64,000 nt of DNA, taken from Methylomonas sp. GTDB lineage: Bacteria > Pseudomonadota > Gammaproteobacteria > Methylococcales > Methylomonadaceae. A program made the translations under genes and the position numbers. Of this stretch, positions 7,341 to 64,000 are shown piece by piece. The stretch covers positions 82,264 through 146,263 of the forward strand of contig NZ_JALOBS010000005.1 in the NCBI RefSeq assembly GCF_023228165.1, read 5' to 3'. A model generated the notes under the pieces. The model was not told where the DNA came from. It did no database searches and saw nothing but the letters and a program-made list of their open reading frames with translations. Every line of letters begins with the position of its first letter. Positions within the stretch are counted from its first letter, which is position 1.

Positions 7341-7379
7341 GCCCCTTCATCCCAGCCTTCTCCCGCCGGAAGAAGGGGC
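7341..7379. repeat. Short GC-rich inverted repeat, REP-like
   Basis: gccccttc...gaaggggc arms with inner ccttct/agaagg, in the LOV-desaturase intergenic gap. Confidence 0.4.
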
Positions 7380-7398
7380 GAACTGCCTCGCCGACCAG

Positions 7399-7860: not shown

Positions 7861-7901
7861 GCTCGCACTCCAAAATCAGTCTGTATTTATAATTATCAAT
7901 T

Positions 7902-8378: not shown

Positions 8379-8395
8379 AACAATCCCCTATATAA

Positions 8396-8413
8396 AGTTG
8401 AATTGTTTCAACT
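8396..8413. promoter_or_regulatory. Perfect palindrome AGTTGAA-N4-TTCAACT, FNR/CRP-family-like box
   Basis: Ends about 18 bp from the SRPBCC start; core TTGAA-N4-TTCAA versus FNR consensus TTGAT-N4-ATCAA. Confidence 0.35.
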
Positions 8414-8493
8414 CGAGCAATATAAATTTTGAAAAATTTCGGCAGTCATTGTAGGCCAATATATTAAGGTATAAATAAAATCCTGCAAGTTAC

Positions 8494-25533: not shown

Positions 25534-25931
25534 GCCTGAAAAAAACCATTATCTCCACCCCGCTGGCGCCGCAAGCCATCGGCACATACTCGCAAGCCAT
25601 CAAAGTCGACAACACGGTGTATTTGTCCGGCCAGATCGCCCTGGACCCCGCTACCATGGAAGTGGTTGATGGTGATATCAGCGTTCAAATTCGCCGGGTG
25701 TTCGATAATCTGCGCGCCGTCGCCCAAGCCGCGGGCGGTGATTTTTGCAATATTGTCAAACTGAACGTGTTTTTGACGGATTTGAGCAACTTTCCTATCG
25801 TCAACGAAATCATGGCGGAATATTTTGTCGAACCCTACCCTGCCCGTGCGGCCGTGGGCGTGGCGGCTTTACCCAAAGACGTGGGCGTGGAAATGGACGC
25901 CGTGATGGTCGTTGAAGAACCTTACTATTAA
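25530..25931 (+). CDS. ridA: RidA-family enamine/imine deaminase
   Basis: [29 protein letters not shown]. Confidence 0.93.
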
Positions 25932-25966
25932 TTCGCTGCGCCGACACGGCGCAAACGCCGTCTGAT

Positions 25967-28276: not shown

Positions 28277-28951
28277 TTATCTCTTCGATGCAAGCAATGC
28301 AGCTAGCTCGGGTGGAAGCTGCAACGGAAGCGCATTGGTGATAATGGCTTCCCAGAGTCGATAGACACGGCTAGTATTCGTTAGTGGAATTATTCCACCT
28401 TTAACTGTTTTATCTAGGGCTTTGGCCTGAAAGTATGCCCTTGCGACAGCTTCAAGCGGAAAATGCTCGCGTTTCAAGCTCGTCTTGTTATATCCCCCAA
28501 GCTGGTCTCGCAAGGATTTTTCTACTGCTTTTGCATTGTTTAGTTCCGCCACTGCATCTTTGTCTGCGTGGTGAAGCAGTAACCACATCTCAAAACAAGG
28601 CTTGCTTAAAGCAACGGATATGCCTTTTTCTTTGGCTTCTTTGATGATTCGCCTAAATTCTTTTATATGAGGGCCATTAACGTAATGGTCGGTGTCTAAC
28701 AGCATCCAGCGTTCGTCTTCCTCTTCATGTTCGATACCCTCTAGGCGTTCTAGAACATCAATAGCGTGGCATCTGTTCTCATCTAAAGGTGTTTCAACCA
28801 CATGGACTTGCACCCGTGCGATCCGGAAAAAATCGAAATATTGCTTAGGTGCATAGGAGTCATCGCTGGCGACAATAAACAACCTGTCGTCGCGCAAAGT
28901 GCCGACATCTCTGTTTAACGGCCTAGGCTTCAGGTCTTTGATTAAACTCAT
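28277..28951 (-). CDS. RloB-like (AbiLii/TOPRIM-like) protein
   Basis: LFIV....APKQYF, LLDTDH (DxD), SKPCFEMWLLLH; overlaps the upstream ATPase by 4 bp. Confidence 0.8.
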   Translation of the reverse strand: MSLIKDLKPRPLNRDVGTLRDDRLFIVASDDSYAPKQYFDFFRIARVQVHVVETPLDENRCHAIDVLERLEGIEHEEEDERWMLLDTDHYVNGPHIKEFRRIIKEAKEKGISVALSKPCFEMWLLLHHADKDAVAELNNAKAVEKSLRDQLGGYNKTSLKREHFPLEAVARAYFQAKALDKTVKGGIIPLTNTSRVYRLWEAIITNALPLQLPPELAALLASKR

Positions 28952-30321
28952 TGAGACAAATTTTCAATTTCCAGCAATGCGTTCAAATCGCCCAAAAATG
29001 GAATGGCACCATATCGACCTTGCAGGTAACGCTTACGAATATCTTGGTCTGTTCGAACATTAAAATCAGCCAAGGAATAAAGATGGCTGGCTCCGGCTTG
29101 GTCTTTTTCCGCAAACCATATTTCATCGCGACGCAGTAGTTCCAAATCCAGCAAATTCGATTCGTGTGTGGTGATGATGATTTGATGCCTGCCACCTTGG
29201 CAGGATTTTAGAAAAAATTCCAAAAATTGCTTTGCCAAAATAGGGTGCATGCTACGGTCAATTTCATCGATAAAAAATACCGCATTGCCTGTTTGCAAGA
29301 AGTGTAATGCTGGCAGGAGATTTAATAGACGACGAGTGCCATCGGATTCCTCGCTCAAATCCAATGGAATTACCTTGCCTAGTTCGTGCTCATGAGCCGC
29401 TTGAATGCTTAATCTATAAAAATGGTTTTCCTCGCTACGCTCGATCAAAAGCTCATTGCCTTGTTCAAGGCTAATGACGGCGGTACCATCCTTATCTTCA
29501 ACTATATCTTCCAATAATTTGGAAACGAACTTTTTTGGCAACAGGTTACGTAGCTCTTCTTCGCTGATTTCGGTTTTTTGCGGTTGTAAATGTGTTATCC
29601 CGGTAGATGCTGATCTAAGAAAATCTCCGGCAAATGTTAAGAACGTTGAATCACTTGCTAATAAATGTCCAAGCGAACCGAAAGAGGAATCCGGTCCGAT
29701 GAATGTCAAATTGTCATCGAACCAGTTAATGACATTCGTTAACTCATCGTCATAATCTGCGCTATCCAGTGTTGCCTGAATGGTTGCTAGGAACGATTGG
29801 TTTTGTAGTCCGCCGACTGTAAACAGGGCACCTAGCTTACCCTTCTTGAATTTTGTCTTACCGGGTTCAACACGTACATTGCCTTGTTCATCAATTATTC
29901 GTTCATACAGACTTTTTTGTTTAGAGCCTACCACTTCGTACAACCATTCTTCAATAATTTTATAGTCGTCTATTTTTGCTCCATAGCGGTACAGTTTACT
30001 ATCAACAATAAATTGAAGATCGAATACGGAAGGTTCGTCCGCTTCTGGTCCAAAGCGGAATTTTTCGCGCTCCATGCCGCTGTTTTTTTTTCTTGGCTTG
30101 AGAACGATCGTTTTGAGATAGCGTAGCGCTTTAAAAAGGTTGGATTTCCCAGCGCCATTTGCGCCGTATAGAACAGCTGTTTTAAGTACTTTTTCTTTGG
30201 TACCAGGAATAGAACACGCATGATCTTCATGGCTGCCGCTAAGACGATTGCTGGCAACCAGCGACAAGGTCTGTTCCGAGGAAAAAGAACGGAAATTGGA
30301 AACAGAAAACGAGACAATCAT
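28948..30321 (-). CDS. RloA-like ABC/AAA_21 ATPase (AbiLi-like)
   Basis: SVSNFRSF, Walker A GANGAGKSN, signature ESDGT, Walker B FIDEID, H-loop TTH, YLQGRYGAIP; AT-rich. Confidence 0.88.
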   Translation of the reverse strand: MIVSFSVSNFRSFSSEQTLSLVASNRLSGSHEDHACSIPGTKEKVLKTAVLYGANGAGKSNLFKALRYLKTIVLKPRKKNSGMEREKFRFGPEADEPSVFDLQFIVDSKLYRYGAKIDDYKIIEEWLYEVVGSKQKSLYERIIDEQGNVRVEPGKTKFKKGKLGALFTVGGLQNQSFLATIQATLDSADYDDELTNVINWFDDNLTFIGPDSSFGSLGHLLASDSTFLTFAGDFLRSASTGITHLQPQKTEISEEELRNLLPKKFVSKLLEDIVEDKDGTAVISLEQGNELLIERSEENHFYRLSIQAAHEHELGKVIPLDLSEESDGTRRLLNLLPALHFLQTGNAVFFIDEIDRSMHPILAKQFLEFFLKSCQGGRHQIIITTHESNLLDLELLRRDEIWFAEKDQAGASHLYSLADFNVRTDQDIRKRYLQGRYGAIPFLGDLNALLEIENLSQ

Positions 30322-52153: not shown

Positions 52154-52771
52154 ATGAACATCCAACCGGCTAAATTTCATTTACGGGATCAATCGCAGCA
52201 CGCTTGGCAACCGCAACGAGTCTTATTGTTCAGCGGCCATATGATAGATGCAATCCATCGCAGCCCGCCCCGCTTCCCGCCGGAAAAAACCGCACTCGCC
52301 GCGCGATGTATAGCCGATAAATTGGACGAAATGCAAGCCGGACCAAGCGACTTGGCTATCACCCAAGGCGCTAACGGCGGCGACATACTGTTCGCGGAAG
52401 CCTGCCTGCAACGCGGGGTAAAATTGCAACTGCTGCAACCTTTCCAAGAAGCGGAATTCATAGCAAACTCGGTCACTCCGGGTAACGCCGACTGGCTACT
52501 GCGTTACCAAACCATCAGCCAACAATTATCCGCGCCGCCCCTGGCCGCCCCCAGCGAACTCGGCGCCCTGCCCGCGGATATGAACGCCTACGAACGCTGC
52601 AACCTGTGGCTATTAGCCAGCGGCCTGGCCTATGGCCCGGAAAAGCTGGTGTTTATCTGCCTGTGGGATGGCGGTGGCGGAGACGGCCCCGGCGGCACCG
52701 CGCATATGGTGACAGAAGTGCAAAAGCAGCACGGGCAAGTGATTTGGCTGGATACCAGGGCGTTATGGTAG
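52154..52771 (+). CDS. Stand-alone SLOG-like (nucleotide-binding Rossmannoid) protein
   Basis: LFSGHMID...RFP, GANGGDILFAEACL, YERCNLWLL, CLWDG..GDGPGGTAHMV. Confidence 0.7.
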   Translation: MNIQPAKFHLRDQSQHAWQPQRVLLFSGHMIDAIHRSPPRFPPEKTALAARCIADKLDEMQAGPSDLAITQGANGGDILFAEACLQRGVKLQLLQPFQEAEFIANSVTPGNADWLLRYQTISQQLSAPPLAAPSELGALPADMNAYERCNLWLLASGLAYGPEKLVFICLWDGGGGDGPGGTAHMVTEVQKQHGQVIWLDTRALW

Positions 52772-53035
52772 CGCGGACGAATTTAAGCACGGTTCCATCG
52801 GAACCCTCCGCCGGCGCTTTCGCTAGCGCCGACTAGGATTTGTTAATCCAGGCGCTGGAAGGATCCCGGTCATCGGTCCGGAGGCGCTGCTGATGGAATT
52901 GTCAATCCAGGACGGCCAGCTTTGGGAAGAAGGGAATCAGGCCGGGGTTAGAACCCGGCGCATTCAGGATGGCTTATCCATTGCCGGTCTGCATCGACCC
53001 GGAACCTGCGTGCGGAGGCGCCTACTCATTTGTGA

Positions 53036-53133
53036 CCGTCGTTCCGGCATGGATTGTCGGAATCCAGGCGCCAGGATAGATCGAAGTTTGCCATCCATGG
53101 CAATGGATACCCGATTCCTGGCAAGTATGACGG
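53036..53133. repeat. About 98-bp MITE/REP-like element with imperfect terminal inverted repeats
   Basis: ccgtc...ggaatcca / tggatac...gacgg ends; internal palindrome TTGCCA-TCCA-TGGCAA. Confidence 0.6.
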
Positions 53134-53219
53134 GTATTTTGTAGTTGCTGAAGCCGCTTCATAATCAGGTGTGATCAAGTATTGCATCATCGGTTAACCA
53201 ACATTTTTTGGAGTTCTGT

Positions 53220-54260
53220 ATGCTGAAAACCCTCGATATTCTATTAGGCATGACCGTGATCATGCTGATTGTCAGCATGGCGGTGACGGTGTTGACGCAA
53301 TTCATTTCCGGACTGGTGAATCTGCGCGGCAAAAATCTGGCCCGCGGATTGAGCGATTTGCTGCAACAGATAGACCCGAACCTGCAGCGCAACATCGCCG
53401 AGCAAATTACCCGCTCCCTGCTTACTCATCCGATGATCAGCAGCGTCGGCCAACGCCTGGGCGATACCATACACCGGGAGGAATTCGTCAAACTATTGAT
53501 GGACTTGGCCGCCGGCGAGATACCCGAAAATCACAGCCAGCCGTTGTCGGACGAGGCCAAACAACTGCTGATACAACTGTTGCAGCAAAACGGCATCGAC
53601 AACCCCAAGGACACCGTCGATAAAGTCCGCGACTATGCCTTGCAGTTGGAATTGAGCAATCCGGAACTGGCCACTAATGTCCGCCACAGCATTGCCATGC
53701 TCACCGAAGCCAATAGCCGGCTGGTGGCCAAAGTCAACGGCTGGTTCGACCAAACCATGGACAGGGTTTCCGATCGGTTTACCGCCAGCAGCCGCATGGT
53801 CAGTTTGCTGTGTTCGATCATCGTGGTGGCGGCAATACAGCTGGACAGCCTGGACGTAATCAACCGTTTAGCCATGGACGACCAATTGCGCGAAGCACTG
53901 ATCAGCAAAGCCATGGTTATGGAACAAACTCGCGCGGACAATCAGCCGCAACCCAATTTAAATGTCGACACGGTGAAAACCGAACTGCACACCCTGCAAC
54001 AATTGGGGGTTATCGACGTGATCAATAGCGGCAAAAACTGGCGTCAGCATTGGTGCGAAGTCAACCCCATCGGCATCATTCTGTCGGTGTTTCTACTCAG
54101 CCTGGGGGCGCCGTTTTGGTACGGCGCCCTGAAAAACCTGTTGAAACTGCGCGGCGCACTGGCCGGCAGGGATGACGCGCAACGCCAGGAACGTCAGACC
54201 CGCCAGCCGCCGAAATTGCCCGTAACCGGCCAAGCCGACTCGCCGCGAGGCGTCGGCTAG
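53220..54260 (+). CDS. Uncharacterised multi-pass membrane protein
   Basis: GGAG RBS before ATG 53220; hydrophobic segments at the N-terminus, middle and SLGAPFWY C-terminal region, with helical loops. Confidence 0.8.
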   Translation: MLKTLDILLGMTVIMLIVSMAVTVLTQFISGLVNLRGKNLARGLSDLLQQIDPNLQRNIAEQITRSLLTHPMISSVGQRLGDTIHREEFVKLLMDLAAGEIPENHSQPLSDEAKQLLIQLLQQNGIDNPKDTVDKVRDYALQLELSNPELATNVRHSIAMLTEANSRLVAKVNGWFDQTMDRVSDRFTASSRMVSLLCSIIVVAAIQLDSLDVINRLAMDDQLREALISKAMVMEQTRADNQPQPNLNVDTVKTELHTLQQLGVIDVINSGKNWRQHWCEVNPIGIILSVFLLSLGAPFWYGALKNLLKLRGALAGRDDAQRQERQTRQPPKLPVTGQADSPRGVG

Positions 54261-54398
54261 CGGCCCGAAGCTGGGTGGATTGACTAGCCCGAGCCGGCGG
54301 CGAATAATGAAACAGATTAACAGCACAATAATATTTGTAACTCATAATCCGCATGCCCACGCATTCTCACTACGAATGACACATCTAACTTTCAGCCT

Positions 54399-57300
54399 AT
54401 GACCAGCGTATTCATTAGTTACAGCCACGACGACGTCCTTCACCAGCAACGGGTCTACGCCTTGGCCGACCGGCTGCTGAAAGACGGCGTCAATGTCATT
54501 CTCGACCGCGACTGCGGCTCAGGCGGGCCTAACGAAGGCTGGGCCAAATGGTCGGAAATGCAGGCGGACAAAACGGCCATCGTATTACCGGTCTTCACAC
54601 CAGCTTATCGTAAGTGCTGGGATGGCGAACAACCACCTAACATGCGTTTAGGTGCTATTCACGAACTCAAGGTGATCTATCAACGGCTCTACAAAGCTGG
54701 CAGCAATATCGATTTTTGCCGCATCCTCACCTTCGAAGACGAGCACCGCAACAGCATACCGACTTTTCTGGAAGGCCTGCCGGTTTTCGATGTCCAGCGT
54801 GACTATGACCAAATCATCGCCTGGTTACGCTGGAAAGGCGCCGCACCAGAACCCAACACAAGCACCTCTGAAATTTCCTGGCCCAACATTCCCGATGACT
54901 ATCCCTGGCCGCTGGCCGACCGTGCAGATCAATTAATTACATTTAAGGGGATGATCAGAGGAACAACTAGGGAACGTATTTTCCTGCTCGAAGGTGCCAG
55001 CAATACAGGAAAAACTTCACTGCTCTCTGCATTTTTTAATCTAGCAAAATCAGTCGAACTTGATGCCGTTTTTCTCGATTTAAAAGGTTGCTCCAGCTTG
55101 GAAGACCTGTTCGACACCTTGGCGCTTGAAGCAAACGACAGCATCTTGCCTGCATTTCACAGTGCCAATGGCGATGCGCGAAAAATCGCACTGCTGCAGG
55201 ATTTGAAAAATCTGCGAAAACCTTTGTTGATCGGCTTCGACACCTATCAACACATCGCACCGGATGTTGCCGACTGGCTCGAAAGCCAATTCCTACGCCG
55301 GGTTGAACAATGTCCGGGATTATTGATACTGATCGCCGGCCAGAAAGTCCCGGATCCGACCAAATACCCCTGGGGCACGCTAGCCATGCCACATCAGTTG
55401 CAAGCGATCCGGGAGAAAAAATACTGGCGCGAGTATGCCGAACGGGTATTGAAAAAGTCGAATATCACCGATGAATATATCGAAGCGGCGCTGCATATTT
55501 ATCAGGGAGACCCCGGTGCAACCAGTGCATTCCTTCAATCTATTACTTTAAAAAACACTCCAACTTCACATCCAGACGAACAAGTTGTAAGTATAAATGA
55601 CGGTCAACCTTTAAATGAAGTCAAAGCAATATTAGTCGGACGAGGAGCTGCCGGGAAAACATCTATAGTTCGTCAATTAGTCAATAATAGTTTTAATCCG
55701 AACGAAAAAGAAACTCTCGGCATCGATATTTCCTCATGTTATTTAACATACGGGGACTACAAATTTAAAGTCAATTTCTGGGATTTCGCTGGACAAATAA
55801 CCGCGCATGCCACCCATCAATTTTTCTTTTCGAGAAATAGCGTTTATATCCTAGTTATTACCGGACGAGAGGATACCCAAAAACTAGATGCTGATTATTG
55901 GTTGCGACTGATACGAGCTCTTGCATATGACTCGACTGGAGAATCTCCAAAAGTCATTATTGCAATGAATAAATGGGAACCAGTTGGTTTTAAAATTGAC
56001 CGAAATTATTTAAAAGAAAAATATCCTTTTATCATAGATTTTATAGAAACCGACTGCAGTACAGGTCGAGGAATAAACCCCTTAAAAAATAAATTAGCCG
56101 AAGCCATTGATTCCATGGCATTTGTGCACCAATCATTTAAACTAAGTTGGTGGAATATTAAAAATCGTTTGGAAACTGAACAATCCAAAAAGAATTATTT
56201 ATCTTACATCGAATTTCAATCCATATGTGCCGAGCTGGGTGAAACAAATACTGAGTATCAACGCCTATTATCTGAGACTTTTCATCAGCTAGGAATTGCT
56301 TTAAATTATAGACAAGATGAACGCTTGCGTAATTCCACCGTATTAAATCCTAACTGGTTAACCGAAGGTATATACAAATTATTGCGACTTGCTGCGGCAA
56401 ATGATGGCAGCGCTGAACTTACTCTTGACTCCGCCCAAAAAACACTGCCAGACGAGTCGAGAAATATGTGTGAGTTTTTGATCGAATTAATGCGGCGTTT
56501 TGATTTGGCTTTTCCACTTAACGAAGCAAATGATCGCTGGTTAGTTCCTCAACGTTTACCAGAGGAACAACCAGAACTGGGGATAGAATGGACATTAAAT
56601 ACAGACGCTACTCGATTAATATTCCGCTATCCAGTTGTCCCAGAGGGCTTAATGCCGCGTTTTATTACGCGCACATATCCGCTCAGCGAAGGAAACGATG
56701 ATACAGGCCCACTTCCACGTTGGGCCAATGGCGTAGTTTTAGAAGACAGTGAAGCACGTGCGCTTGTGCGATTAGATCAAGAGCTGAGAACAATTACAGT
56801 AATAGCCATTGGTGAACAATCTGCCCGGTTGTCGTTACTCGGTGTAATTCAGTCTGATTTTCGAACAATTCACGAAGACATAAAAGGACTTGGGCAAGAA
56901 AGATTTTTAGAAGTCGAGGGAAGACCTGACATCTATGCTCCAGTAGAAACTTTATTGGCCGACGAAAGACTTAAACGCCCGTCCTCGGCGGCTACACCGC
57001 AAGGTACTTTAATACTTGATCCGACAAAAGAACTAAATCGATTATCCGAACCCTCTGCACGTAAAGAAGGTCTTTGGCAAGCTAAAGTGTTTATCAGTTA
57101 TTCAAGTACAGACGCACGAATGAAGGATCAATTATTGACCCGCCTTAAGCCTATGCAGGAACGCGCGGGATTGATCAAATATTGGCATGATCGTCTGATT
57201 ACACCCGGCGAAAATTGGGATGGTGAAATAAAAAGCCAGATTAAAGAGGCAGACATCATTCTATTACTAGTAAGTGCCAAATTTTTAGCCTCTGACTATG

Positions 57301-57563
57301 TCAACAGTGTTGAACTCAAATTAGCTATTGAACGCGCAACATCCGAGCGAACTATTTTAATCCCAATTATTCTCGAAAAGTGTTGTTGGGAAACTCAAAC
57401 ATTTAGTGCATTTCAAGCATTACCACTTAAAGGAAAACCTATACGCGACATCAAGCCACAACGAGATGGCTGGCATCAAGTCGAGAGTGAATTAATGCAT
57501 ATTTTTCGAAAATTAAGGGAAAATCGATCAACTAAAGATGATTCCAAATTGAATAATCAGTAA
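54399..57563 (+). CDS. SEFIR/TIR - P-loop NTPase - Roc GTPase - COR - TIR multidomain protein
   Basis: VFISYSHDD (N-terminal TIR/SEFIR); GASNTGKT; Roc G1 GRGAAGKTS, G3 FWDFAGQ, G4-like NKWE; COR (LNPNWLTEGIY, PEGLMPRFITR); C-terminal TIR KVFISYSSTD...LLLVSAKFLASDY. Confidence 0.88.
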   Translation: MTSVFISYSHDDVLHQQRVYALADRLLKDGVNVILDRDCGSGGPNEGWAKWSEMQADKTAIVLPVFTPAYRKCWDGEQPPNMRLGAIHELKVIYQRLYKAGSNIDFCRILTFEDEHRNSIPTFLEGLPVFDVQRDYDQIIAWLRWKGAAPEPNTSTSEISWPNIPDDYPWPLADRADQLITFKGMIRGTTRERIFLLEGASNTGKTSLLSAFFNLAKSVELDAVFLDLKGCSSLEDLFDTLALEANDSILPAFHSANGDARKIALLQDLKNLRKPLLIGFDTYQHIAPDVADWLESQFLRRVEQCPGLLILIAGQKVPDPTKYPWGTLAMPHQLQAIREKKYWREYAERVLKKSNITDEYIEAALHIYQGDPGATSAFLQSITLKNTPTSHPDEQVVSINDGQPLNEVKAILVGRGAAGKTSIVRQLVNNSFNPNEKETLGIDISSCYLTYGDYKFKVNFWDFAGQITAHATHQFFFSRNSVYILVITGREDTQKLDADYWLRLIRALAYDSTGESPKVIIAMNKWEPVGFKIDRNYLKEKYPFIIDFIETDCSTGRGINPLKNKLAEAIDSMAFVHQSFKLSWWNIKNRLETEQSKKNYLSYIEFQSICAELGETNTEYQRLLSETFHQLGIALNYRQDERLRNSTVLNPNWLTEGIYKLLRLAAANDGSAELTLDSAQKTLPDESRNMCEFLIELMRRFDLAFPLNEANDRWLVPQRLPEEQPELGIEWTLNTDATRLIFRYPVVPEGLMPRFITRTYPLSEGNDDTGPLPRWANGVVLEDSEARALVRLDQELRTITVIAIGEQSARLSLLGVIQSDFRTIHEDIKGLGQERFLEVEGRPDIYAPVETLLADERLKRPSSAATPQGTLILDPTKELNRLSEPSARKEGLWQAKVFISYSSTDARMKDQLLTRLKPMQERAGLIKYWHDRLITPGENWDGEIKSQIKEADIILLLVSAKFLASDYVNSVELKLAIERATSERTILIPIILEKCCWETQTFSAFQALPLKGKPIRDIKPQRDGWHQVESELMHIFRKLRENRSTKDDSKLNNQ

Positions 57564-57606
57564 ATGGTTATTGAAGTTTTTTTAAAAAAACCCAAAGTAG
57601 GCACCC

Positions 57607-58770
57607 ATGACCCAAACCGTATTAGACCGCATGCAAGCCCCCGGCTCCAAGAAAATTCTCGCCTGTGACGGCGGCGGCATCTTGGGTTTGATGAGCGTGG
57701 AGATACTGGCCAAGCTGGAATATGACTTGCGGGTAAAGCTGGGCAAGGATGATAAGTTCGTACTGGCGGATTATTTCGATTTTGTCTGCGGCACCAGCAC
57801 CGGGGCGATTATTGCCGCCTGCATCGCCTGCGGCATGTCCATGGACAAGATCAGAGAGTTCTATCTGGACAGCGGTGAACAGATGTTCGACAAGGCCTCG
57901 CTGTTGAAACGCTTGCGTTTCAATTATAACAACGAGCCGCTGGCAAAATTGCTGAGAAAAGCTTTTGATGAACAATTGCTGGAAAGCAACGCCACGCTGG
58001 GCAGCTCCAAGCTGCGCACGCTGTTGATGATGGTATTGCGCAATCACAGTACCGATTCGCCGTGGCCGGTCAGCAATAATCCGCTGGCCAAATACAACGA
58101 CCTGAGTCGGCGCGACTGCAATCTGTTTTTACCGCTGTGGCAACTGGTGCGGGCCAGCAGCGCCGCGCCAACCTATTTTCCGCCGGAAGTGGTGACTTTC
58201 GCCGAGGGTTCGCCGGAGGAATATAACTTTATCTTCGTCGACGGCGGCGTTACCACTTATAACAACCCGGCCTATCTGGCCTTTCAAATGGCCACCGCCG
58301 CGCCCTATAACATCAACTGGCCAACCGGCGAAAACCAGCTGTTGATCGTTTCGGTCGGCACCGGCGGCGCGGCCAAAACCCTGGCCAAAAACACCGGCGT
58401 GGACGAACTGAATATTTTGCATTTCGCCCAAAACATACCCTCGGCCTTGATGAATGCCGCCTCGGCGGGCTGGGACATGACCTGCCGCACCTTGGGCGCC
58501 TGCCGGCACGGCGGGCTTATCGATAGGGAAATCGGCGATATGGTACAGTCACCCAACACAGTGAATTTCAGCGGGCCGAAATTATTCAGTTATCTGCGCT
58601 ACGACCCTTCGGTGACCCGGGAGGGACTGGATGCCTTGGGTTTGCGCGATGTCGACCCGGCCCATGTGCAGAGCCTGGATTCGGTGGCGCATATCGGCGA
58701 CATCCGGCGGGTCGGCATCGAGTACGCCAACACGCACATCAAGCCGGAACATTTTAAAGGCTTTGTCTGA
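57607..58770 (+). CDS. Patatin-like phospholipase
   Basis: DGGGILG, GTSTG nucleophile and DGG motifs intact. Confidence 0.93.
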   Translation: MTQTVLDRMQAPGSKKILACDGGGILGLMSVEILAKLEYDLRVKLGKDDKFVLADYFDFVCGTSTGAIIAACIACGMSMDKIREFYLDSGEQMFDKASLLKRLRFNYNNEPLAKLLRKAFDEQLLESNATLGSSKLRTLLMMVLRNHSTDSPWPVSNNPLAKYNDLSRRDCNLFLPLWQLVRASSAAPTYFPPEVVTFAEGSPEEYNFIFVDGGVTTYNNPAYLAFQMATAAPYNINWPTGENQLLIVSVGTGGAAKTLAKNTGVDELNILHFAQNIPSALMNAASAGWDMTCRTLGACRHGGLIDREIGDMVQSPNTVNFSGPKLFSYLRYDPSVTREGLDALGLRDVDPAHVQSLDSVAHIGDIRRVGIEYANTHIKPEHFKGFV

Positions 58771-58796
58771 TTCTAATTCAATTGGGGGAGATCAAC

Positions 58797-60092
58797 ATGG
58801 CGGACCAACAAAAAACCTGCTTCGTGGTGATGGGCTTCGGCGTCAAAACCGATTATCACACCAGCCGCGAGCTGGACCTGGATAAAAGCTATAAATACAT
58901 CATCAAGACGGCGGTGGAAGACGCCGGTCTGAAATGCATCCGGGCCGATGAAATCCCGCATGCCGGCACCATCGATGTGCCGATGTTCGAGCAATTGCTG
59001 AAGGCCGATGTGGTGTTGGCGGATTTATCCACCTCCAACTGCAATGCTATTTATGAACTGGGGGTTAGGCATGCGTTAAGGCCACGTACCACCATCATCA
59101 TCGCCGAGGAACAATTCGCCAATCCGTTTGACGTTAACCATATCCTGATCCGCCGCTATCGGCATGACGGCAAGGTGTTGGATATTGAAGAAGTGGACCG
59201 GTTTCGAAAGCTACTCAAACAAGCCATTATCGACATCGTCAATGCCGAGCAAAACGATAGCCCGGTGTATACCTATTTAAGTAATCTTGAACCACCGGAA
59301 GAACGCATCGTCACCACTGGCAAAGCCGGCAATATCGTTTCGGCAATCGCACCGGAAACGGCCGCCGCACCGGAACCGACTACTCCGGCGGTGTCGGTAT
59401 TGCTGCAACAAGTGACCGAAGCCAAGAAAAACAGCGATTTTTTACTCGCCAAAGCGCTGCTGACCACCTTGCACACGCTATCCCCCCGTCAATCGCAATG
59501 GGTGCAGCAACTGGCGCTGGTCACCTACAAAGCCAAATACCCCGACCCTTACAACGCCCTGCTTGAAGCTAAGCAGATTCTGCAACCCCTGCAACCGGAG
59601 TCTTCGAATAATGCCGAAACCTTGGGGATTTGGGGCGCCATCCATAAACGGTTGTTCGACATCAGCCGCGATCCGGGCGATCTGGATACGGCCATCAGCG
59701 CTTACGAAAAAGGCTATCGCTTACAAAGCGATTACTACAACGGTATCAATTGGGCATTCCTGTTGAATGTGCGGGCATCCCTGACCCAGGATAGGGCGGA
59801 AGCCATTACCGATTTTATGCTGGCCCGCCGCACCCGCGCGGATGTGTTGAAAATCGCCGATGCCAAATTCGCCGAGCTGAAAACCATCAAGGATGTGGAA
59901 GACGACGATAACCGTTACTGGGTGTTAGCCACCAAGGCCGAAGCCTGGGTGGGACTGGGTAATGACGCCGAAGCCGAGGAATGCCTGCGGCAAGCCAAAC
60001 CGTACTCCGAATATTGGATGTGCGAATCCACCCAACAGCAAATCGATGCGCTGAAGAAATTATTGCAAAACTCGCCTCTGGATGGACTATAA
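58797..60092 (+). CDS. NDT/deoxyribohydrolase-like domain + TPR domain (DUF4071/MAP3K TRAF-binding-like)
   Basis: CFVVMGF...RADE...ADVVLADLS..N.NAIYELGVRHAL, then TPRs (ETLGIWGAIHKR, YYNGIN, YWVLATKAEA). Confidence 0.82.
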   Translation: MADQQKTCFVVMGFGVKTDYHTSRELDLDKSYKYIIKTAVEDAGLKCIRADEIPHAGTIDVPMFEQLLKADVVLADLSTSNCNAIYELGVRHALRPRTTIIIAEEQFANPFDVNHILIRRYRHDGKVLDIEEVDRFRKLLKQAIIDIVNAEQNDSPVYTYLSNLEPPEERIVTTGKAGNIVSAIAPETAAAPEPTTPAVSVLLQQVTEAKKNSDFLLAKALLTTLHTLSPRQSQWVQQLALVTYKAKYPDPYNALLEAKQILQPLQPESSNNAETLGIWGAIHKRLFDISRDPGDLDTAISAYEKGYRLQSDYYNGINWAFLLNVRASLTQDRAEAITDFMLARRTRADVLKIADAKFAELKTIKDVEDDDNRYWVLATKAEAWVGLGNDAEAEECLRQAKPYSEYWMCESTQQQIDALKKLLQNSPLDGL

Positions 60093-60161
60093 CCATAACA
60101 ACGCTTTACCGGGCCGAGCGATCAGCCAGGCCCCCATTCACACCTCAGCGGAGCACCTGCC

Positions 60162-62984
60162 ATGGCCAAACAAAACTATAAAAAATTAATCACTCAAGCC
60201 CAGGAACTCATCGACCAAACCCAAGCTAGCGGCACCCCTGCCGACGCCGCCGTGGATAAATGCTTCCTGTTATCCAAGCAACTGTATCAGCAAGGCGAAG
60301 TGCGCGTTTCCCGGCAATTGTTAGTTAAAGCTCGGGAATTACTCAAGCAACAGGGCGAAGCCTGTTTGGCTAAAACACCTTTGGACGAAACAGAAACCCT
60401 GGGATTGACCAAACGTTTAAAAAATGTGGATGAACATGCGCTGGCGCGGCAATTGTTACACAAACTGCTCGCGCAAGGTTGCAGCGACGAGCTGACGATC
60501 AAAGCCACCCAGCAATTAGCTTTAAATACCTATAAAGACAGCGAACTGCCGCCAGACGAACGCCATAGCCAAGCTTTAACTATATTGGAAGGCATAGGCT
60601 TGCGCAGCCCGGATTGCAAGGACCCGGAAACCTTGGGCCAAGCCGGTGCGATTTATAAACGCAAATTCGACCGCTCCGGCCGCCTGGAAGACTTACAAGC
60701 CGCGCATTATTTTTACCAGCGCGGCTGGACGCTAAACCCGGAACAGGACATGGGTTACTGCGGCATCAATGCGGCGTTTATTCTGGACAAATTGGCGCAC
60801 CGGGCCCATGTCAACGCGGCCCGCGAAAAAATTCCCGCTACCGAATGCGAATCCTTGAGCAAGCAAGCCAACGACTTGCGCAAGCAACTATTGGCCGAAT
60901 TGCCGAATTACGCCACCGTGCAGGACCAAGACATCCTCAACCAATGGTGGTTTTTGGTGAGCATGGCGGAAGCCGCTTTCGGCCTGGAGCAATGGGATGC
61001 AGCCGGCAAATGGCTGGAACAGGCCAAAACCGCCGAACACTTCGAATGGGAACGCCAGACCACCACCCGACAACTGGTGGCTATCGCCCGGATGCAAGGT
61101 TTTGTGCCGCCCGAGGACGGTCAATCCGCCAAGGATTGGGCGCCGCCCTGGCAGGTTTTGAGCCTTTTATTGGGGGCCGATGCGCCGGCCTGCTTTGAGT
61201 GTTTTCGCGGCAAGGTCGGCTTGGCGCTGTCCGGCGGCGGCTTCCGGGCTTCGCTGTATCATCTGGGGGTACTGGCGCGTTTGGCGGAGGTGGATGCGCT
61301 ACGCAGCGTGGAGGTATTGTCGACGGTATCCGGCGGCAGCATCGTCGGCGCGCATTATTATTTGGCCTTGCGCAAACTGTTGATGGAAAAAACCGACGCC
61401 GAAATCAGCCGCGACGATTACATCCAGTTGGTGCGCGAGGTGATAGCGCAATTTTTTAACGGCGTCTCGGAAAACCTGCGGGTACGGGCGCTGGCCAGCC
61501 TGCCCGACAACTTTAAAATGCTGTTTCAATCCGGCTACGGCCGCAGCAATCGGATGGGGGAGCTGTACGAAACCTACTTCTACCAACAAGTTGAAGCGTA
61601 TCAAGCTGCCGCCGACGGCGTGGCGAACATGCGGCCCATGCACGATTTACGCATCCATCCGCTCACCGCCGATCCGCTCGGCAATACCACCTTTACCGAC
61701 CAAAGCTTCCACCCCCAACACGCCAACTGGCGGCGCCGGTCTAAAGTGCCGACCTTGTTATTAAACACCACCTCGCTGAATTCCGGGCATAACTGGCACT
61801 TTACCGCCAGCTTTATGGGCGAGCCGCCGGGGCTGACAGGACAGGACATCGATATGAACCAGCGCTATCGACGCTTGTATTACTGGCAGGCGCCTACCGA
61901 AAAACTCAAACACTACCCGCTGGGTTACGCGGTGGCCGCTTCCGCCGGAGTGCCGGCCCTGTTCGATCCCTTGGAACTGAACGATTTGTACCCGGATCGC
62001 ACCATTCGCCTGGTGGATGGCGGCGTGCACGACAATCAGGGCGTGGCGGGTTTACTGGATGAATGCTGTGATTTGATTTTATGCAGCGATGCCTCCGGAC
62101 AAATGGACGATCAAGCCTCACCTAAAAAAAGCGCCTTAAGCGTGTTTTTTCGTTCCGATAGCATTTTGCAGGACCGGGTGCGGGAGGCCCAATATCAAGA
62201 CCTGGAAGCCAAAGCTAAAAATAATGCCTTGCAGGGTTTGTTTTTCATCCATTTAAAACTGGATTTGCATGCCGACCCGCTGGATTGGATACAGTGCGAT
62301 AACCCTACTCCGGAGCCGCAACGACCACATTGCACGGATTACGGCATAGACCGCAGCCAGCAACGCCGCCTGGCCCAAATCCGCACCGATCTGGATACCT
62401 TTACCGAAGTGGAAGCTTATGCGCTGATGGCCAGCGGTTATGCCATGACCAAGCATCAACTGTCCGAGCTAGACCGGCAACACCAAAGTCTGCAACTCAA
62501 CGGCCATTGGGCCGATTTTGATATCCACGCACCGGAGCAAAACTGGCCTTTCAGCAGCATTGCTCCCATCCTGACGGCCGATCCGGAAGCCGGTGATCCT
62601 AAGGCAAAGGATTTGGCCAAGCAACTCAGCGCCTCCAGCCTGATGGCTGGCAAAGCCTTGGTGCTTATCCCAACCTTGAAATACGCCGGTATGGCCTGCG
62701 GATTATTGCTGTTGGCTCTATTAATCGATTGGATTAAACAAAACTGGCTGGATCACACCACGATTACTTTGGGGGTCGCCAGCATCACCACGGCCCTTAT
62801 CATTACTTTGGTCGGTGTGTTACTGCCTTTCGGTAAATATCTGCAACCTTTGGACACCGCTCGCAAATGGATAGGTTTGGCCGTGCTCGGCAGTGTAGGT
62901 TGGGCGTTGGCCAATCTGCATTTGAAGTTTTTCGACCAGTGGTTTAAAAAGCGCGGCAAATTGCAGCGCTTGTTAAATTTGTAA
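60162..62984 (+). CDS. TPR (DUF4071-like) + patatin-like phospholipase + C-terminal TM helices
   Basis: ETLGQAGAIYKR, GYCGINAAF, WWFLVSMAEA; LALSGGGFRA, STVSGGS, DGG; three hydrophobic segments at the C-terminus. Confidence 0.85.
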   Translation: MAKQNYKKLITQAQELIDQTQASGTPADAAVDKCFLLSKQLYQQGEVRVSRQLLVKARELLKQQGEACLAKTPLDETETLGLTKRLKNVDEHALARQLLHKLLAQGCSDELTIKATQQLALNTYKDSELPPDERHSQALTILEGIGLRSPDCKDPETLGQAGAIYKRKFDRSGRLEDLQAAHYFYQRGWTLNPEQDMGYCGINAAFILDKLAHRAHVNAAREKIPATECESLSKQANDLRKQLLAELPNYATVQDQDILNQWWFLVSMAEAAFGLEQWDAAGKWLEQAKTAEHFEWERQTTTRQLVAIARMQGFVPPEDGQSAKDWAPPWQVLSLLLGADAPACFECFRGKVGLALSGGGFRASLYHLGVLARLAEVDALRSVEVLSTVSGGSIVGAHYYLALRKLLMEKTDAEISRDDYIQLVREVIAQFFNGVSENLRVRALASLPDNFKMLFQSGYGRSNRMGELYETYFYQQVEAYQAAADGVANMRPMHDLRIHPLTADPLGNTTFTDQSFHPQHANWRRRSKVPTLLLNTTSLNSGHNWHFTASFMGEPPGLTGQDIDMNQRYRRLYYWQAPTEKLKHYPLGYAVAASAGVPALFDPLELNDLYPDRTIRLVDGGVHDNQGVAGLLDECCDLILCSDASGQMDDQASPKKSALSVFFRSDSILQDRVREAQYQDLEAKAKNNALQGLFFIHLKLDLHADPLDWIQCDNPTPEPQRPHCTDYGIDRSQQRRLAQIRTDLDTFTEVEAYALMASGYAMTKHQLSELDRQHQSLQLNGHWADFDIHAPEQNWPFSSIAPILTADPEAGDPKAKDLAKQLSASSLMAGKALVLIPTLKYAGMACGLLLLALLIDWIKQNWLDHTTITLGVASITTALIITLVGVLLPFGKYLQPLDTARKWIGLAVLGSVGWALANLHLKFFDQWFKKRGKLQRLLNL

Positions 62985-63060
62985 GCACTACATGAAGTCG
63001 TTGCGGCGCTGACGCCTTCCGCGCCGCAGCTTCTAACATGGACTAATCAATGGGGGCTGC

Positions 63061-64000
63061 ATGAATAACTTCGACGGTCAAATCCTGTTCGCCTTAATCG
63101 CGTCTTTAATTCTGGCCTGGGTCAGCAGCTGGTGGGTTGCCAAACGCTACGCCAGCCAAGTGTTGGCATGCACGCAAATGGGCAGCTCGCCTAGCGATGC
63201 ATTAACCACGGATCTCCCGGAACCCGTCCAATTGCCGGCATCCGTTTCGGCCGTATCAGGCAACGTCCATCTTGTCAAACAAAACCGCGCCGCCAGACGC
63301 AACTTACGCCTTGCCCTGACCTTGAGTTGCCTGGTGTTAGCCGCCATTATTGCCGCTGTCGCCCAATCCGCTTATGTCACCGACGGCTTTAGTTGGCGGC
63401 GGCTAGTAACACTGACTCTGGTATTCGCCTGGCCGCTGGTAGCCACTATTGGCCTACTGGAACGCTGGCCGCGCGGCAAGATATTTTTCATTTCGCTGCA
63501 ATACGTCGCGCTATCCAGTGTGATCGTGATGCTCAATTCCGACGAGAACCAGCATTTTTTACCGGTATTGCTGTGGCTTTTTTCCCAGCAACTGCCTTTG
63601 CTGCTGATCGTGTTTTTCATGACCGGGCCTAGATTGCGCAGCACAGGCCCTTATCTGATTTTGGTTTTTTTTAGTTTGACGGTTTCGTCCTTGCTGGGCT
63701 TGAGCGCCCTGGAACATAGCCTTGGGGATAATGCCGATAGCTGGATAATCGATTTAGCCCGGCTGACGAACGCGTACGTGGTGTTTGGCCTGTTCAGTAT
63801 TGCGCCCTGGCTGCTGGCCTTTTTTCCAGTACGCTTTTTTGCCCGCCGCCTGGCCAATGCTTACCAAGGCAAAGCCTTTTCCGAACCGCTTTATCTGGCT
63901 GCCGGCTTATGGATCATCACGCTGCTGATCCAAGCCCTGACCTTAAGCCATTCCATCGATTGGCGGGCTTATCACTTATTATGGGCCTGCCTGCTGTTTC
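63061..64000 (+). CDS. Hypothetical polytopic membrane protein, 5' part (runs off window end)
   Basis: Hand translation MNNFDGQILFALIASLILAWVSSWWVAKRY... stays open to 64000 with many TM-like segments. Confidence 0.75.
   Translation, partial: MNNFDGQILFALIASLILAWVSSWWVAKRYASQVLACTQMGSSPSDALTTDLPEPVQLPASVSAVSGNVHLVKQNRAARRNLRLALTLSCLVLAAIIAAVAQSAYVTDGFSWRRLVTLTLVFAWPLVATIGLLERWPRGKIFFISLQYVALSSVIVMLNSDENQHFLPVLLWLFSQQLPLLLIVFFMTGPRLRSTGPYLILVFFSLTVSSLLGLSALEHSLGDNADSWIIDLARLTNAYVVFGLFSIAPWLLAFFPVRFFARRLANAYQGKAFSEPLYLAAGLWIITLLIQALTLSHSIDWRAYHLLWACLLF

What the first reader, a model, noticed from the sequence alone, without database searches (positions are those of the whole stretch)
52154..64000. 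Candidate undescribed immune/cell-death system: SLOG + TIR-Roco + NDT-TPR + two patatins + membrane proteins
Seen: seven co-directional genes running off the window end, the patatin and NDT-TPR genes only 26 bp apart. They encode a SLOG-like protein, two TIR/SEFIR domains, an NTPase and a Roc-COR GTPase, an NDT-like hydrolase, two patatins with intact catalytic motifs, and two polytopic membrane proteins. Known: TIR makes NAD-derived signals that SLOG senses (Thoeris); patatins are membrane-destroying effectors (CBASS CapV); DUF4071-type TPRs with a deoxyribohydrolase-like domain resemble the regulatory part of animal ASK1. Inference: a nucleotide-signalling, GTPase-gated lipase cascade with eukaryote-like parts. 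I recognise no named system with this combination.
Basis: partly seen in the sequence, partly recalled or inferred. Interest (0 to 1): 0.8.

Follow-up and report, generated by a model that had tools for sequence, protein, structure and literature searches.

The report
TPR-sensor, TIR and patatin defence island
This is a real seven-gene island in a Methylomonas-like bacterium that looks like an anti-virus suicide system built around a little-studied "TPR-sensor" protein related to the regulatory part of animal ASK1. Its core kind was already predicted by others, but this version, with a swappable Roco-GTPase/TIR sensor gene and two lipases, is new.

Summary
Window 52154-64000 carries seven co-directional genes with 26-138 bp gaps:
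- g1: a YpsA-like SLOG protein.
- g2: a 3-TM protein.
- g3: a 1054-aa SEFIR / P-loop / Roc-COR / TIR protein.
- g4: a patatin.
- g5: a TIR/DRHyd-like + TPR-S protein.
- g6: a TPR-S / patatin / TM protein.
- g7: a 9-TM protein, 520 aa in full; the island ends about 620 bp past the window.

It is not an undescribed kind. g5 belongs to the BcTpr family. That is the "core Tpr architecture" of Burroughs & Aravind 2020, and one member (BcTir/Tpr) is reported to block phages through NAD+ cleavage. TIR, YpsA-SLOG and patatin are its known partners.

New here:
- Methylomonas relatives share a constant core, g1-g4-g5-g6-g7.
- Between g1 and g4 lies a variable slot. It holds nothing, TIR + nSTAND1-WD40 + g2, g2 + LRR-Roc-COR-TIR, or (here) g2 + a unique SEFIR-NTPase::Roc-COR-TIR fusion.
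- The closest Roc-COR-TIR clade always sits next to TPR-S genes.
- SLOG is found fused to g5-like proteins.

Best reading (about 0.55): one modular abortive-infection system using an NAD+-derived signal, with patatin effectors. None of its models reaches family level in PADLOC or NCBIfam. Verdict: new variant of a known kind.

The parts
52154..52771 (+). g1: stand-alone YpsA-like SLOG protein (205 aa). It is the first gene of the island.
   Evidence: AF2 model pLDDT 88.8; top PDB fold hit YpsA 2NX2 (E 1e-6), then DprA, ShosA and LOG. Weak Pfam YpsA hit in 2 of 12 family members. The family has 1855 hits, mostly Methylococcales. Adjacent to g5-type genes in 12 of 77 loci and fused to g5-like proteins in L071, L086, L088, L090 and L112.
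52765..53045 (+). Pseudogene scar: remnants of a 481-aa (weak SIR2-like)+TIR_2 gene (aa 1-54 and 387-444). The 83-aa ORF at 52893-53144 lies in it.
   Evidence: tblastn of the L081 TIR_2 protein against the window gives E 4e-11 and 3e-5. The same scar is present in the M. lenta locus. DNA collinearity is shown.
53208..54260 (+). g2: membrane protein with 3 predicted TM segments and a long helical middle part. No known family. The true start is probably the ATG at 53220.
   Evidence: Hydropathy; no Pfam, PADLOC or NCBIfam hit. 86% identical in M. methanica and 82% in L084. Also adjacent to g5 homologues in Acidobacteriota loci L079 (43% identity) and L007.
54399..57563 (+). g3: 1054-aa fusion protein. 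SEFIR (nt 54405-54821), P-loop NTPase AAA_16 (54921-55325), Roc (55623-55976), COR-A (56145-56555), COR-B (56610-56903), TIR_2 (57087-57431). It occupies the variable slot of the island.
   Evidence: Pfam and PADLOC. aa 1-385 equal a complete stand-alone SEFIR+NTPase family of about 390 aa (best 65% identity, 3761 relatives). aa 401-1054 equal the Roc-COR-TIR of LRR-Roc-COR-TIR proteins (up to 66%). No other protein in the 5.8-billion-sequence database covers the full length. GC falls from 0.54 (SEFIR) to 0.37-0.42 (Roc-COR-TIR), against about 0.55 for the island. In L084 nt 54446-55605 are replaced by LRRs.
57607..58770 (+). g4: soluble patatin-like phospholipase (387 aa).
   Evidence: Pfam patatin 1.2e-26. 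PADLOC CBASS phospholipase effector 5e-46, but NCBIfam CBASS_lipase scores 121 bits, below the 200 cut-off. GTSTG and DGG conserved in 13 of 13 relatives. The commonest conserved neighbour of g5 homologues after TIR genes: 15 of 77 loci.
58797..60092 (+). g5: core protein (431 aa). N-terminal TIR/DRHyd-like N-glycosidase domain (about aa 1-150, N81/N83/E87), a disordered linker (155-194) and a C-terminal TPR-S domain. BcTpr family.
   Evidence: Pfam TPR-S 2e-24 and MAP3K_TRAF_bd 1.7e-8. More than 4459 homologues. Invariant residues. AF2 plus Foldseek: ASK1 8QGY E 2e-6; ASK1 regulatory region 5ULM rmsd 4.4 A. Orthology to BcTpr by residue numbering in L059.
60162..62984 (+). g6: TPR-S (aa 93-207) + patatin (354-628) + C-terminal TM segments (833-888). 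940 aa, a membrane-anchored lipase with its own sensor repeat.
   Evidence: Pfam; TM prediction. SGGGFR, VSGG and DGG conserved in 6 of 6 relatives. TPR-S is 34% identical to that of g5. Homologues lie next to g5 in L020, L033, L065 and L168, and next to Roc-COR-TIR in L083.
63061..64000 (+). g7: polytopic membrane protein cut by the window end (313 of 520 aa). It has 9 predicted TM segments, then a conserved cytoplasmic alpha/beta-like domain (aa about 325-520) of unknown family.
   Evidence: Full length from Logan contig L001; TM prediction. 78-92% identical in three Methylomonas islands. A g7-like gene follows g6-like in L083 (E 6e-46). No Pfam or PDB match.

Best explanation
Proposed identity. 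One modular abortive-infection (conflict) system of the TPR-S / 'Tpr-core' kind, working through an NAD+-derived small molecule.

Proposed flow (inferred, not shown):
1. g3 is the exchangeable sensor/initiator. A trigger drives NTP-dependent assembly through its P-loop and Roc-COR modules. This brings the SEFIR and TIR domains together so that they cleave NAD+.
2. The product is bound by TPR-S domains and by the YpsA-like SLOG protein g1.
3. g5 (BcTpr-like) amplifies the response. Its TIR/DRHyd-like glycosidase makes more cADPR-type isomer and drains NAD+.
4. The signal releases two lipases, soluble g4 (probably with g1) and membrane-anchored g6. The membrane proteins g2 and g7 act as partners, anchors or pores.
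5. NAD+ loss plus membrane breakdown kills or arrests the infected cell.

Shown here: domain content, intact motifs, the constant core versus the variable slot, gene fusions, and co-occurrence.

Shown elsewhere (preprint only): BcTir/Tpr blocks T-phages. BcTpr makes a cADPR isomer, binds cADPR (Kd 1.9 uM) and needs N82 and E86.
For: (a) Family membership of g5 and matching active-site residues (preprint).

(b) Partner census around 77-79 g5 homologues from many phyla:
- TIR genes within 10 kb in 31 of 79 loci, and within 500 bp in 11. The preprint's census reports 28 of 78.
- g4-type patatin in 15 of 77 loci and g1-type SLOG in 12 of 77.
- SLATT in 9, nSTAND1(-WD40) in 6, g6-type in 3 and g2-type in 2.
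- The patatin + SLOG + g5 triad occurs in 8 loci of Verrucomicrobiota and Bacteroidota.

(c) Fusions of a g5-like protein with a g1-like SLOG in L071, L086, L088, L090 and L112.

(d) Methylomonas islands share g1-g4-g5-g6-g7 at three different chromosomal sites. The slot between g1 and g4 holds different TIR+NTPase genes, and a decayed TIR gene is still visible in the window and in M. lenta.

(e) Every locus examined that carries a Roc-COR-TIR relative at least 60% identical to g3 has a TPR-S-family gene beside it, in three different architectures: L083, L084/85, L086/87, L088-L091 and L112.

(f) Roc-COR-TIR is only 60% identical between the window and L084, while the flanking genes are 78-90% identical. 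That is the pattern expected of a sensor in an arms race.

(g) g5 homologues sit on 67 plasmids, 36 of them conjugative. On some they are paired with TIR genes next to TA modules, IS elements and SLATT genes. A g1-patatin pair lies beside an XhoI restriction-modification system.
Against: - There is no experiment on this island and no RNA data. The window comes from a groundwater metagenome.
- The M. lenta island has no TIR gene at all, so the core may work without g3.
- Most g5 homologues have none of the other genes nearby, and g1 also occurs alone.
- 74 of 80 metagenomic Roc-COR-TIR loci have no TPR-S neighbour.
- g3 has foreign GC content and a promoter-like site 90 bp upstream.
- In the only tested relative the TIR partner is catalytically dead and the Tpr protein itself makes the signal. 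That work is an unreviewed preprint.
- The roles of g2 and g7 are guesses.
Confidence: 0.55

Rival explanations
1. Composite island. Two or three independent defence systems merely sit side by side: (i) g3, a self-contained NLR-like TIR/SEFIR NADase; (ii) the g1-g4-g5 Tpr-type module; (iii) the g6-g7 membrane lipase pair.
For: - M. lenta lacks g2 and g3.
- g3 has low GC and a promoter-like site of its own.
- The SEFIR+NTPase half is a complete stand-alone family and SEFIR matches PADLOC bSEFIR, a single-gene defence.
- Most LRR-Roc-COR-TIR genes have no TPR-S neighbours.
- g6+g7 occur without g4 and g5 in L083.
- g1+patatin occur alone in L172.
Against: - The variable genes are inserted inside the operon, between g1 and g4, not at its edge. 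Four different occupants of that slot all carry TIR plus an NTPase.
- The Roc-COR-TIR clade nearest to g3 is next to TPR-S genes in every locus examined, in three unrelated architectures.
- TIR is the commonest partner of g5 family-wide.
- g5 and g6 share the same sensor repeat.
Confidence: 0.25
2. Same system, different wiring. g5 is both sensor and signal generator, as reported for BcTpr. The TIR and SEFIR domains of g3 are regulatory scaffolds or brakes like BcTir, and the Roc-COR and P-loop modules only tune the threshold. Lipases are triggered by the g5 product or by NAD+ depletion.
For: - In the preprint BcTir is inactive (K37 in place of Glu) and lowers cADPR-isomer levels, while BcTpr makes the signal.
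- The M. lenta core works, if at all, without TIR.
- g5 catalytic residues are invariant in 40 of 40 sequences.
Against: - g3's C-terminal TIR keeps a Glu in the canonical S-x-[WY]-x(3-4)-E-L position (VELK, E972) and matches ThsB at 1.6e-33.
- LRR and WD40 repeats in sister cassettes look like ligand sensors.
Confidence: 0.2
3. Not immunity. A physiological stress, redox or membrane-remodelling pathway of methanotrophs: ASK1-like stress sensing, YpsA-like control of division, and lipases for lipid turnover.
For: - Chromosomal location between hydrogenase and ubiC genes.
- g1 is widespread in Methylococcales and sometimes sits alone next to recG or other housekeeping genes.
- YpsA is linked to oxidative stress and cell division in Bacillus (title and abstract of bioRxiv 10.1101/451617, listed).
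Against: - The island sits at three different sites in close relatives, with cassette turnover and a pseudogene scar.
- Patchy spread across phyla, plasmids and some viral contigs.
- Association with SLATT, caspase/CHAT, restriction-modification, TA and IS elements.
Confidence: 0.08

Closest known systems
BcTir/Tpr system of Bacillus cereus and the 'core Tpr architecture' / TPR-S systems of Burroughs & Aravind 2020
   Same: g5 has the same architecture and length: a MilB/DRHyd-like N-glycosidase plus TPR-S, with the same N-x-N-x3-E active-site motif. A TIR-domain gene lies in the operon. YpsA-SLOG and patatin partners are as catalogued.
   Different: - Seven genes instead of two.
- TIR is embedded in a 1054-aa SEFIR/P-loop/Roc-COR protein instead of a 130-aa ThsB-like protein.
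- There is a second TPR-S protein fused to patatin and TM segments.
- There are two extra membrane proteins.
- Roc-COR, nSTAND1-WD40, g2 and g7 are not in the partner list that the preprint relays. The 2020 paper itself could not be read here.
Thoeris (ThsB TIR + ThsA SLOG effector)
   Same: A TIR domain that matches the PADLOC ThsB model (1.6e-33), plus a YpsA-clade SLOG protein. This is the logic of TIR making a cADPR isomer that SLOG senses.
   Different: SLOG is a bare 205-aa protein with no SIR2, Macro or TM effector domain and no ThsA hit. The effectors are patatins. A DRHyd-TPR-S protein is central.
CBASS with CapV patatin effector
   Same: g4 resembles nucleotide-activated patatin effectors (PADLOC 5e-46; NCBIfam CBASS_lipase E 5e-35).
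   Different: No CD-NTase is present, and the score of 121 bits is below the family cut-off of 200.
Animal ASK1 (MAP3K5) N-terminal regulatory region
   Same: ASK1 is the best PDB fold match of the g5 model (8QGY, 460 aligned columns; 5ULM TPR region rmsd 4.4 A). The Pfam MAP3K_TRAF_bd hit is above cut-off.
   Different: No kinase or PH domain. 17-19% identity. A profile search of PDB sequences did not reach ASK1. g5 keeps a catalytic Glu.
Bacterial Roco proteins (LRR-Roc-COR, e.g. Chlorobium tepidum Roco; LRRK2 relatives)
   Same: Roc + COR-A + COR-B tandem with P-loop and DxxG.
   Different: It carries a C-terminal TIR, and here the LRR is replaced by a whole SEFIR+P-loop protein. G4 is NKWE rather than NKxD. 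No held paper links Roco proteins to phage defence.
bSEFIR single-gene defence (PADLOC bSEFIR model)
   Same: The N-terminal SEFIR domain matches the PADLOC bSEFIR model (4e-26). aa 1-385 form a stand-alone-type SEFIR+NTPase unit.
   Different: Only positions 40-190 of the 412-position model match. Here the unit is fused to Roc-COR-TIR inside a larger operon.

Membership tests
TPR-S / Tpr-core (BcTir/Tpr-type) system | A protein with an N-terminal MilB/DRHyd-like glycosidase (N-x-N-x3-E) fused to TPR-S repeats | tested here: met
   g5: Pfam TPR-S 2e-24. N81/N83/E87 invariant in 40 sequences. 44% identical to an Oceanobacillus orthologue that carries the exact BcTpr residue numbers.
TPR-S / Tpr-core (BcTir/Tpr-type) system | A TIR-domain gene in the same operon | tested here: met
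   g3 carries TIR_2 (6e-24) and SEFIR. TIR genes lie near 31 of 79 g5 homologues. The TIR here is part of a multidomain protein, not a small ThsB-like one.
TPR-S / Tpr-core (BcTir/Tpr-type) system | Accessory genes drawn from the catalogued set (YpsA-SLOG, patatin, calcineurin, caspase, TM) | tested here: met
   g1 has the YpsA fold; g4 and g6 are patatins. Related loci carry Metallophos, CHAT and Peptidase_C14.
TPR-S / Tpr-core (BcTir/Tpr-type) system | Phage protection with NAD+ cleavage to a cADPR isomer | not testable with these tools
   Reported only for BcTir/Tpr in a preprint.
Thoeris | ThsA-type effector: SLOG fused to SIR2, Macro or TM | tested here: not met
   g1 is SLOG only (205 aa) and has no PADLOC hit.
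Thoeris | ThsB-type TIR protein | tested here: inconclusive
   The ThsB model matches g3 aa 895-1039 (1.6e-33), but as one domain of a 1054-aa protein.
CBASS | CD-NTase signal synthase | tested here: not met
   No CD-NTase hit in any of the eight proteins.
CBASS | CapV-family lipase above the curated cut-off | tested here: not met
   NF041079 scores 121.4 bits against a cut-off of 200.
Roco proteins | Roc GTPase immediately followed by COR-A and COR-B | tested here: met
   Pfam Roc 6e-25, COR-A 1e-31, COR-B 5e-14. GRGAAGKT and DFAG present.
Roco proteins | N-terminal LRR (typical of bacterial members) | tested here: not met
   No LRR hit in g3. The LRR is present in orthologues such as P0139/L084.
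SLOG superfamily, YpsA clade | SLOG Rossmannoid fold with Gly-rich loops | tested here: met
   Foldseek hits: YpsA E 1e-6, then DprA, ShosA, LOG and MCP. Conserved GACGGD and GDGPGGT motifs. The sequence-only Pfam hit is weak.
ASK1 / MAP3K5 family | Ser/Thr kinase domain after the TPR region | tested here: not met
   g5 ends after the TPR-S domain and has no kinase hit. The resemblance is limited to the regulatory N-terminus.

The most novel reading that the evidence does not exclude
A clade of bacterial Roco (Roc-COR) GTPases fused to TIR acts as interchangeable NLR-like pathogen sensors. These sensors feed an ASK1-like TPR-S/DRHyd 'signalosome', which in turn fires SLOG-guided and TPR-S-guided patatin lipases. 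On this reading the ancestors of the LRRK/Roco, ASK1, SEFIR/TIR and patatin modules already cooperated in one prokaryotic cell-death pathway. g2 and g7 would be new membrane effector or receptor families.
Probability: 0.3. Interest if true: 0.75.

Novelty: new variant of a known kind. Interest (0 to 1): 0.6.

Why it matters
- TPR-S/DRHyd proteins are very common: more than 4459 relatives, on chromosomes, 67 plasmids and some viral contigs. Yet they are absent from PADLOC and NCBIfam, and only one two-gene member has been tested.
- This island offers a natural dissection kit. It has a constant five-gene core and naturally swapped TIR-NTPase cassettes (none, STAND-WD40, LRR-Roco, SEFIR-NTPase-Roco).
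- With it one can ask three questions: what TPR-S senses, whether a Roc-COR GTPase can gate a TIR enzyme, and how a free SLOG protein couples to a lipase.
- It would also give an experimental handle on the bacterial origin of the ASK1 regulatory region and on the function of bacterial Roco proteins.

Tried and rejected
- Named-system match. PADLOC, NCBIfam and Pfam scans found only domain-level or sub-threshold hits. Thoeris, CBASS and bSEFIR memberships were rejected.
- Sequence-only proof of SLOG and of NDT/DRHyd. Pfam and PDB profile searches were weak or non-significant. Fold comparison settled SLOG. The DRHyd call rests on the PADLOC TIR-effector hit, the model topology and the preprint.
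- g3 as a random insertion. Considered because of its GC content and its absence in M. lenta. Weakened by clade-specific linkage to TPR-S genes.
- General linkage of all Roc-COR-TIR proteins to TPR-S. Rejected, as only 6 of 80 metagenome loci show it.
- g7 C-terminal domain as DRHyd or SLOG. hhalign gave E 0.1 and 0.45, not significant. There are no Pfam hits for g2 or g7.
- Expression evidence. Only DNA metagenomes hold the sequence.
- The promoter/terminator scan was not enriched over shuffles.
- The two key Aravind-lab papers (PMC4678834, PMC7685563) are not held. What they contain is taken from the preprint's account and from my memory of the 2020 abstract (a TPR scaffold predicted to recognise NAD+-derived signals).
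- Literature searches for Roco proteins in phage defence, DUF4071 or TPR-S in bacteria, and ASK-like anti-phage systems found nothing further.
Full report
WHAT IS THERE

Window 52154-64000 holds seven co-directional + strand genes separated by 26-138 bp. The one exception is a 436-bp gap after g1. An identical Logan contig shows that the last gene runs to 520 aa and that the island then ends at a chorismate-lyase gene. Upstream, a hydrogenase operon ends at 51830. The proteins are 83-93% identical to those of Methylomonas lenta and M. methanica. The only run holding the exact sequence is a groundwater metagenome.

DOMAINS

- g3 (1054 aa) is SEFIR / AAA_16 P-loop / Roc / COR-A / COR-B / TIR_2. 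It has strong PADLOC ThsB and bSEFIR domain hits. Walker A motifs, DFAG, and a Glu in the canonical TIR position are intact.
- g4 is a patatin (GTSTG, DGG).
- g6 is TPR-S + patatin (SGGGFR, VSGG, DGG) + C-terminal TM segments.
- g5 is TPR-S / MAP3K_TRAF_bd with an N-terminal alpha/beta domain. That domain hits a CBASS TIR-effector model at 2e-8.
- g1 has no sequence-family hit. An AlphaFold model built on 34 homologues (pLDDT 88.8) matches B. subtilis YpsA best, followed by DprA, ShosA and LOG, so it has a SLOG fold.
- The g5 model's best PDB match is the ASK1 cryo-EM structure over 460 columns, and the ASK1 regulatory-region crystal structure also matches.
- g2 (3 TM segments) and g7 (9 TM segments plus a conserved cytoplasmic domain) match nothing known.

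The 83-aa ORF is a pseudogene scar. g6 is also membrane-anchored. The direct NDT match is not significant (E 0.23).

IT IS NOT AN UNDESCRIBED KIND

g5 has more than 4459 relatives, which NCBI names 'TRAFs-binding domain-containing protein'. A Firmicutes orthologue in Oceanobacillus is 416 aa and 44% identical. It carries I10, M11, N80, N82 and E86, exactly the residues and numbers published for BcTpr. It has a 130-aa ThsB-like TIR gene upstream and a SLATT gene downstream.

The preprint 10.1101/2023.05.26.542521 reports the following:
- BcTir/Tpr protects E. coli from T-phages.
- BcTpr's MilB-like N-terminus makes a cADPR isomer and depletes NAD+.
- N82 and E86 are essential.
- Burroughs & Aravind 2020 had defined this 'core Tpr architecture' in 78 operons, with TIR (28), YpsA-SLOG (5), patatin (4), LSDAT, calcineurin, caspase and TM partners.

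I could not read the 2020 paper itself.

CO-OCCURRENCE, TESTED INDEPENDENTLY

I fetched 79 genome loci with g5 homologues (41-61% identity) from Acidobacteriota, Verrucomicrobiota, Bacteroidota, Proteobacteria, Actinobacteria and Firmicutes.

| Neighbour of the g5 homologue | Loci |
|---|---|
| TIR gene within 10 kb (within 500 bp) | 31 of 79 (11) |
| g4-type patatin | 15 of 77 |
| g1-type SLOG | 12 of 77 |
| SLATT/DUF4231 | 9 |
| nSTAND1(-WD40) | 6 |
| g6-type | 3 |
| g2-type | 2 |

Eight loci have patatin, SLOG and g5 together. Many g5 genes stand alone, as the preprint also notes. SLOG is found fused to the C-terminus of g5-like proteins in L071, L086, L088, L090 and L112. This is a classic sign of functional coupling. 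g5 homologues also occur on 67 plasmids. These include Tpr-TIR pairs on a 9.8-kb mobilizable Pseudomonas plasmid and on an IS-rich Aeromonas plasmid with a SLATT gene. They also occur on a few viral contigs.

THE ISLAND'S OWN ANATOMY

| Assembly | Gene order | Site |
|---|---|---|
| M. lenta (L082) | g1-g4-g5-g6-g7 | between yaeQ and mutS |
| M. methanica (L081) | g1 - (weak SIR2-like)+TIR_2 - nSTAND1-WD40 - g2 - g4-g5-g6-g7 | same hydrogenase/ubiC site as the window |
| Methylomonas MAG (L084/85) | g1 - g2 - LRR-Roc-COR-TIR - g4-g5-g6-g7 | a third site |

- The window is collinear with the MAG except for nt 54446-55605. There the LRR region is replaced by SEFIR + P-loop.
- That N-terminal 385 aa is a complete member of a stand-alone family of about 390 aa with 3761 relatives. 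No other protein in the 5.8-billion-sequence database has the full g3 architecture.
- Both the window and M. lenta still carry fragments of the TIR_2 gene after g1.
- g3's Roc-COR-TIR part has GC 0.37-0.42, against 0.55 for the island. It is only 60% identical to the MAG orthologue, while the neighbouring genes are 78-90% identical.

So there is a constant core and a fast-turning slot. Whenever that slot is filled, it holds TIR plus an NTPase, usually with ligand-binding repeats.

IS g3 PART OF THE SYSTEM?

Three look-ups of Roc-COR-TIR relatives all landed beside TPR-S genes, in three architectures:
- L083: Roc-COR-TIR, TIR, nSTAND1, g6-like, TIR, g7-like.
- L084: the seven-gene order.
- L086: a g5-like/SLOG fusion, LRR-Roc-COR-TIR, Metallophos, CHAT.

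A metagenome scan gave 80 more loci. Only 6 had TPR-S-family neighbours, but these included all 5 loci with at least 64% identity to g3. None of the loci at 52% identity or below did, apart from one weak g5-type hit in L167. The link is therefore real but specific to one clade. It favours one system over a chance juxtaposition. The composite-island rival remains plausible (0.25).

OTHER g1 CONTEXTS

These show the same modularity:
- g1-g5-g6 followed by a 325-aa gene abutting a DDE transposase, in Methylotuvimicrobium. I did not test whether that gene is an interrupted g7.
- g1-TIR/PASTA-caspase, then a 1781-aa lipase-CHAT-TPR-S protein, then TIR, in Sulfurimicrobium.
- g1-patatin beside an XhoI restriction-modification system.
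- g1-g5 alone.
- g1 alone, twice.

MECHANISM (INFERRED)

- The TIR-NTPase cassette senses infection and starts NAD+ cleavage.
- TPR-S domains (g5, g6) and the YpsA-like SLOG (g1) bind the product. From memory, the 2020 abstract predicts that the TPR scaffold binds NAD+-derived signals. The YpsA clade includes cADPR sensors according to PMC9503650.
- g5 amplifies the signal and depletes NAD+.
- Patatins g4 and g6 attack membranes, with g2 and g7 as partners.

An alternative wiring, in which g5 is the generator and the TIR domains act as regulators as in BcTir, has about 0.2. A non-immune stress role has about 0.08.

VERDICT

This is a genuine, coherent candidate immune island. Its core kind is known computationally and has been tested once, in a preprint. 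The Methylomonas five-gene core, the variable TIR-NTPase slot, the Roco-TIR linkage, the unique SEFIR-NTPase::Roc-COR-TIR fusion, and the g2 and g7 families appear to be new. It is a new variant of a known kind. Interest 0.6.

Noticed in passing
window 28277-30321 (- strand): An AAA_21 ATPase (457 aa) and an RloB-like protein (224 aa) overlap by 4 bp in a low-GC stretch (0.43). The pair looks like an AbiL/OLD-type two-gene defence module, about 22 kb from the island.
   Followed up: partly
window 6363-9372 (- strand): A 39% GC block encodes a BLUF blue-light sensor fused to a PsiE membrane domain (8494-9372). It also encodes a PAS protein, a polyketide-cyclase/START-like protein and a fatty-acid hydroxylase.
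   Followed up: no
L183-L205 (IMG/VR viral contigs): More than 20 viral contigs encode only the N-terminal TIR/DRHyd-like domain of g5 (about residues 1-130, 32-42% identity) without TPR-S. The role of these phage copies is unknown; nucleotide metabolism or counter-defence are possibilities.
   Followed up: no
L206 (Pseudomonas plasmid pA7J1) and L207 (Aeromonas caviae plasmid): Tpr-TIR gene pairs lie on a 9.8-kb MOBQ plasmid beside a RelB/YafQ toxin-antitoxin pair. They also lie on an IS-riddled plasmid segment with extra TIR and SLATT genes.
   Followed up: partly
L168/L169 15136-18027 (Methylotuvimicrobium buryatense): After g1-g5-g6 come a 325-aa gene, a DDE_Tnp_1 transposase on the other strand, then a 233-aa gene. 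This may be a g7-type gene split by an insertion sequence; homology to g7 was not tested.
   Followed up: no
L170/L171 13784-19129 (Sulfurimicrobium): A 1781-aa protein combines alpha/beta-hydrolase/LCAT-like lipase regions, CHAT and TPR-S. It is flanked by g1-like SLOG, TIR-PASTA, a caspase and another TIR gene. This is another large TPR-S variant.
   Followed up: no
L173 10001-10630 versus window 23350-28078: In another Methylomonas assembly a solo g1 homologue (73% identity) sits directly after spoT-recG. The window has spoT-recG at 23350-28078 but no g1 there. g1-type genes therefore also exist outside any island.
   Followed up: no
L001 8656-9243 (g7 aa 325-520, beyond the window end): The g7 cytoplasmic domain has an invariant ADRVLMDL...HELSV stretch. 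It lines up with the ADLVIADL...YELGV active-site stretch of the g5 glycosidase domain, but only at hhalign E 0.1. This is a lead, not a result.
   Followed up: partly
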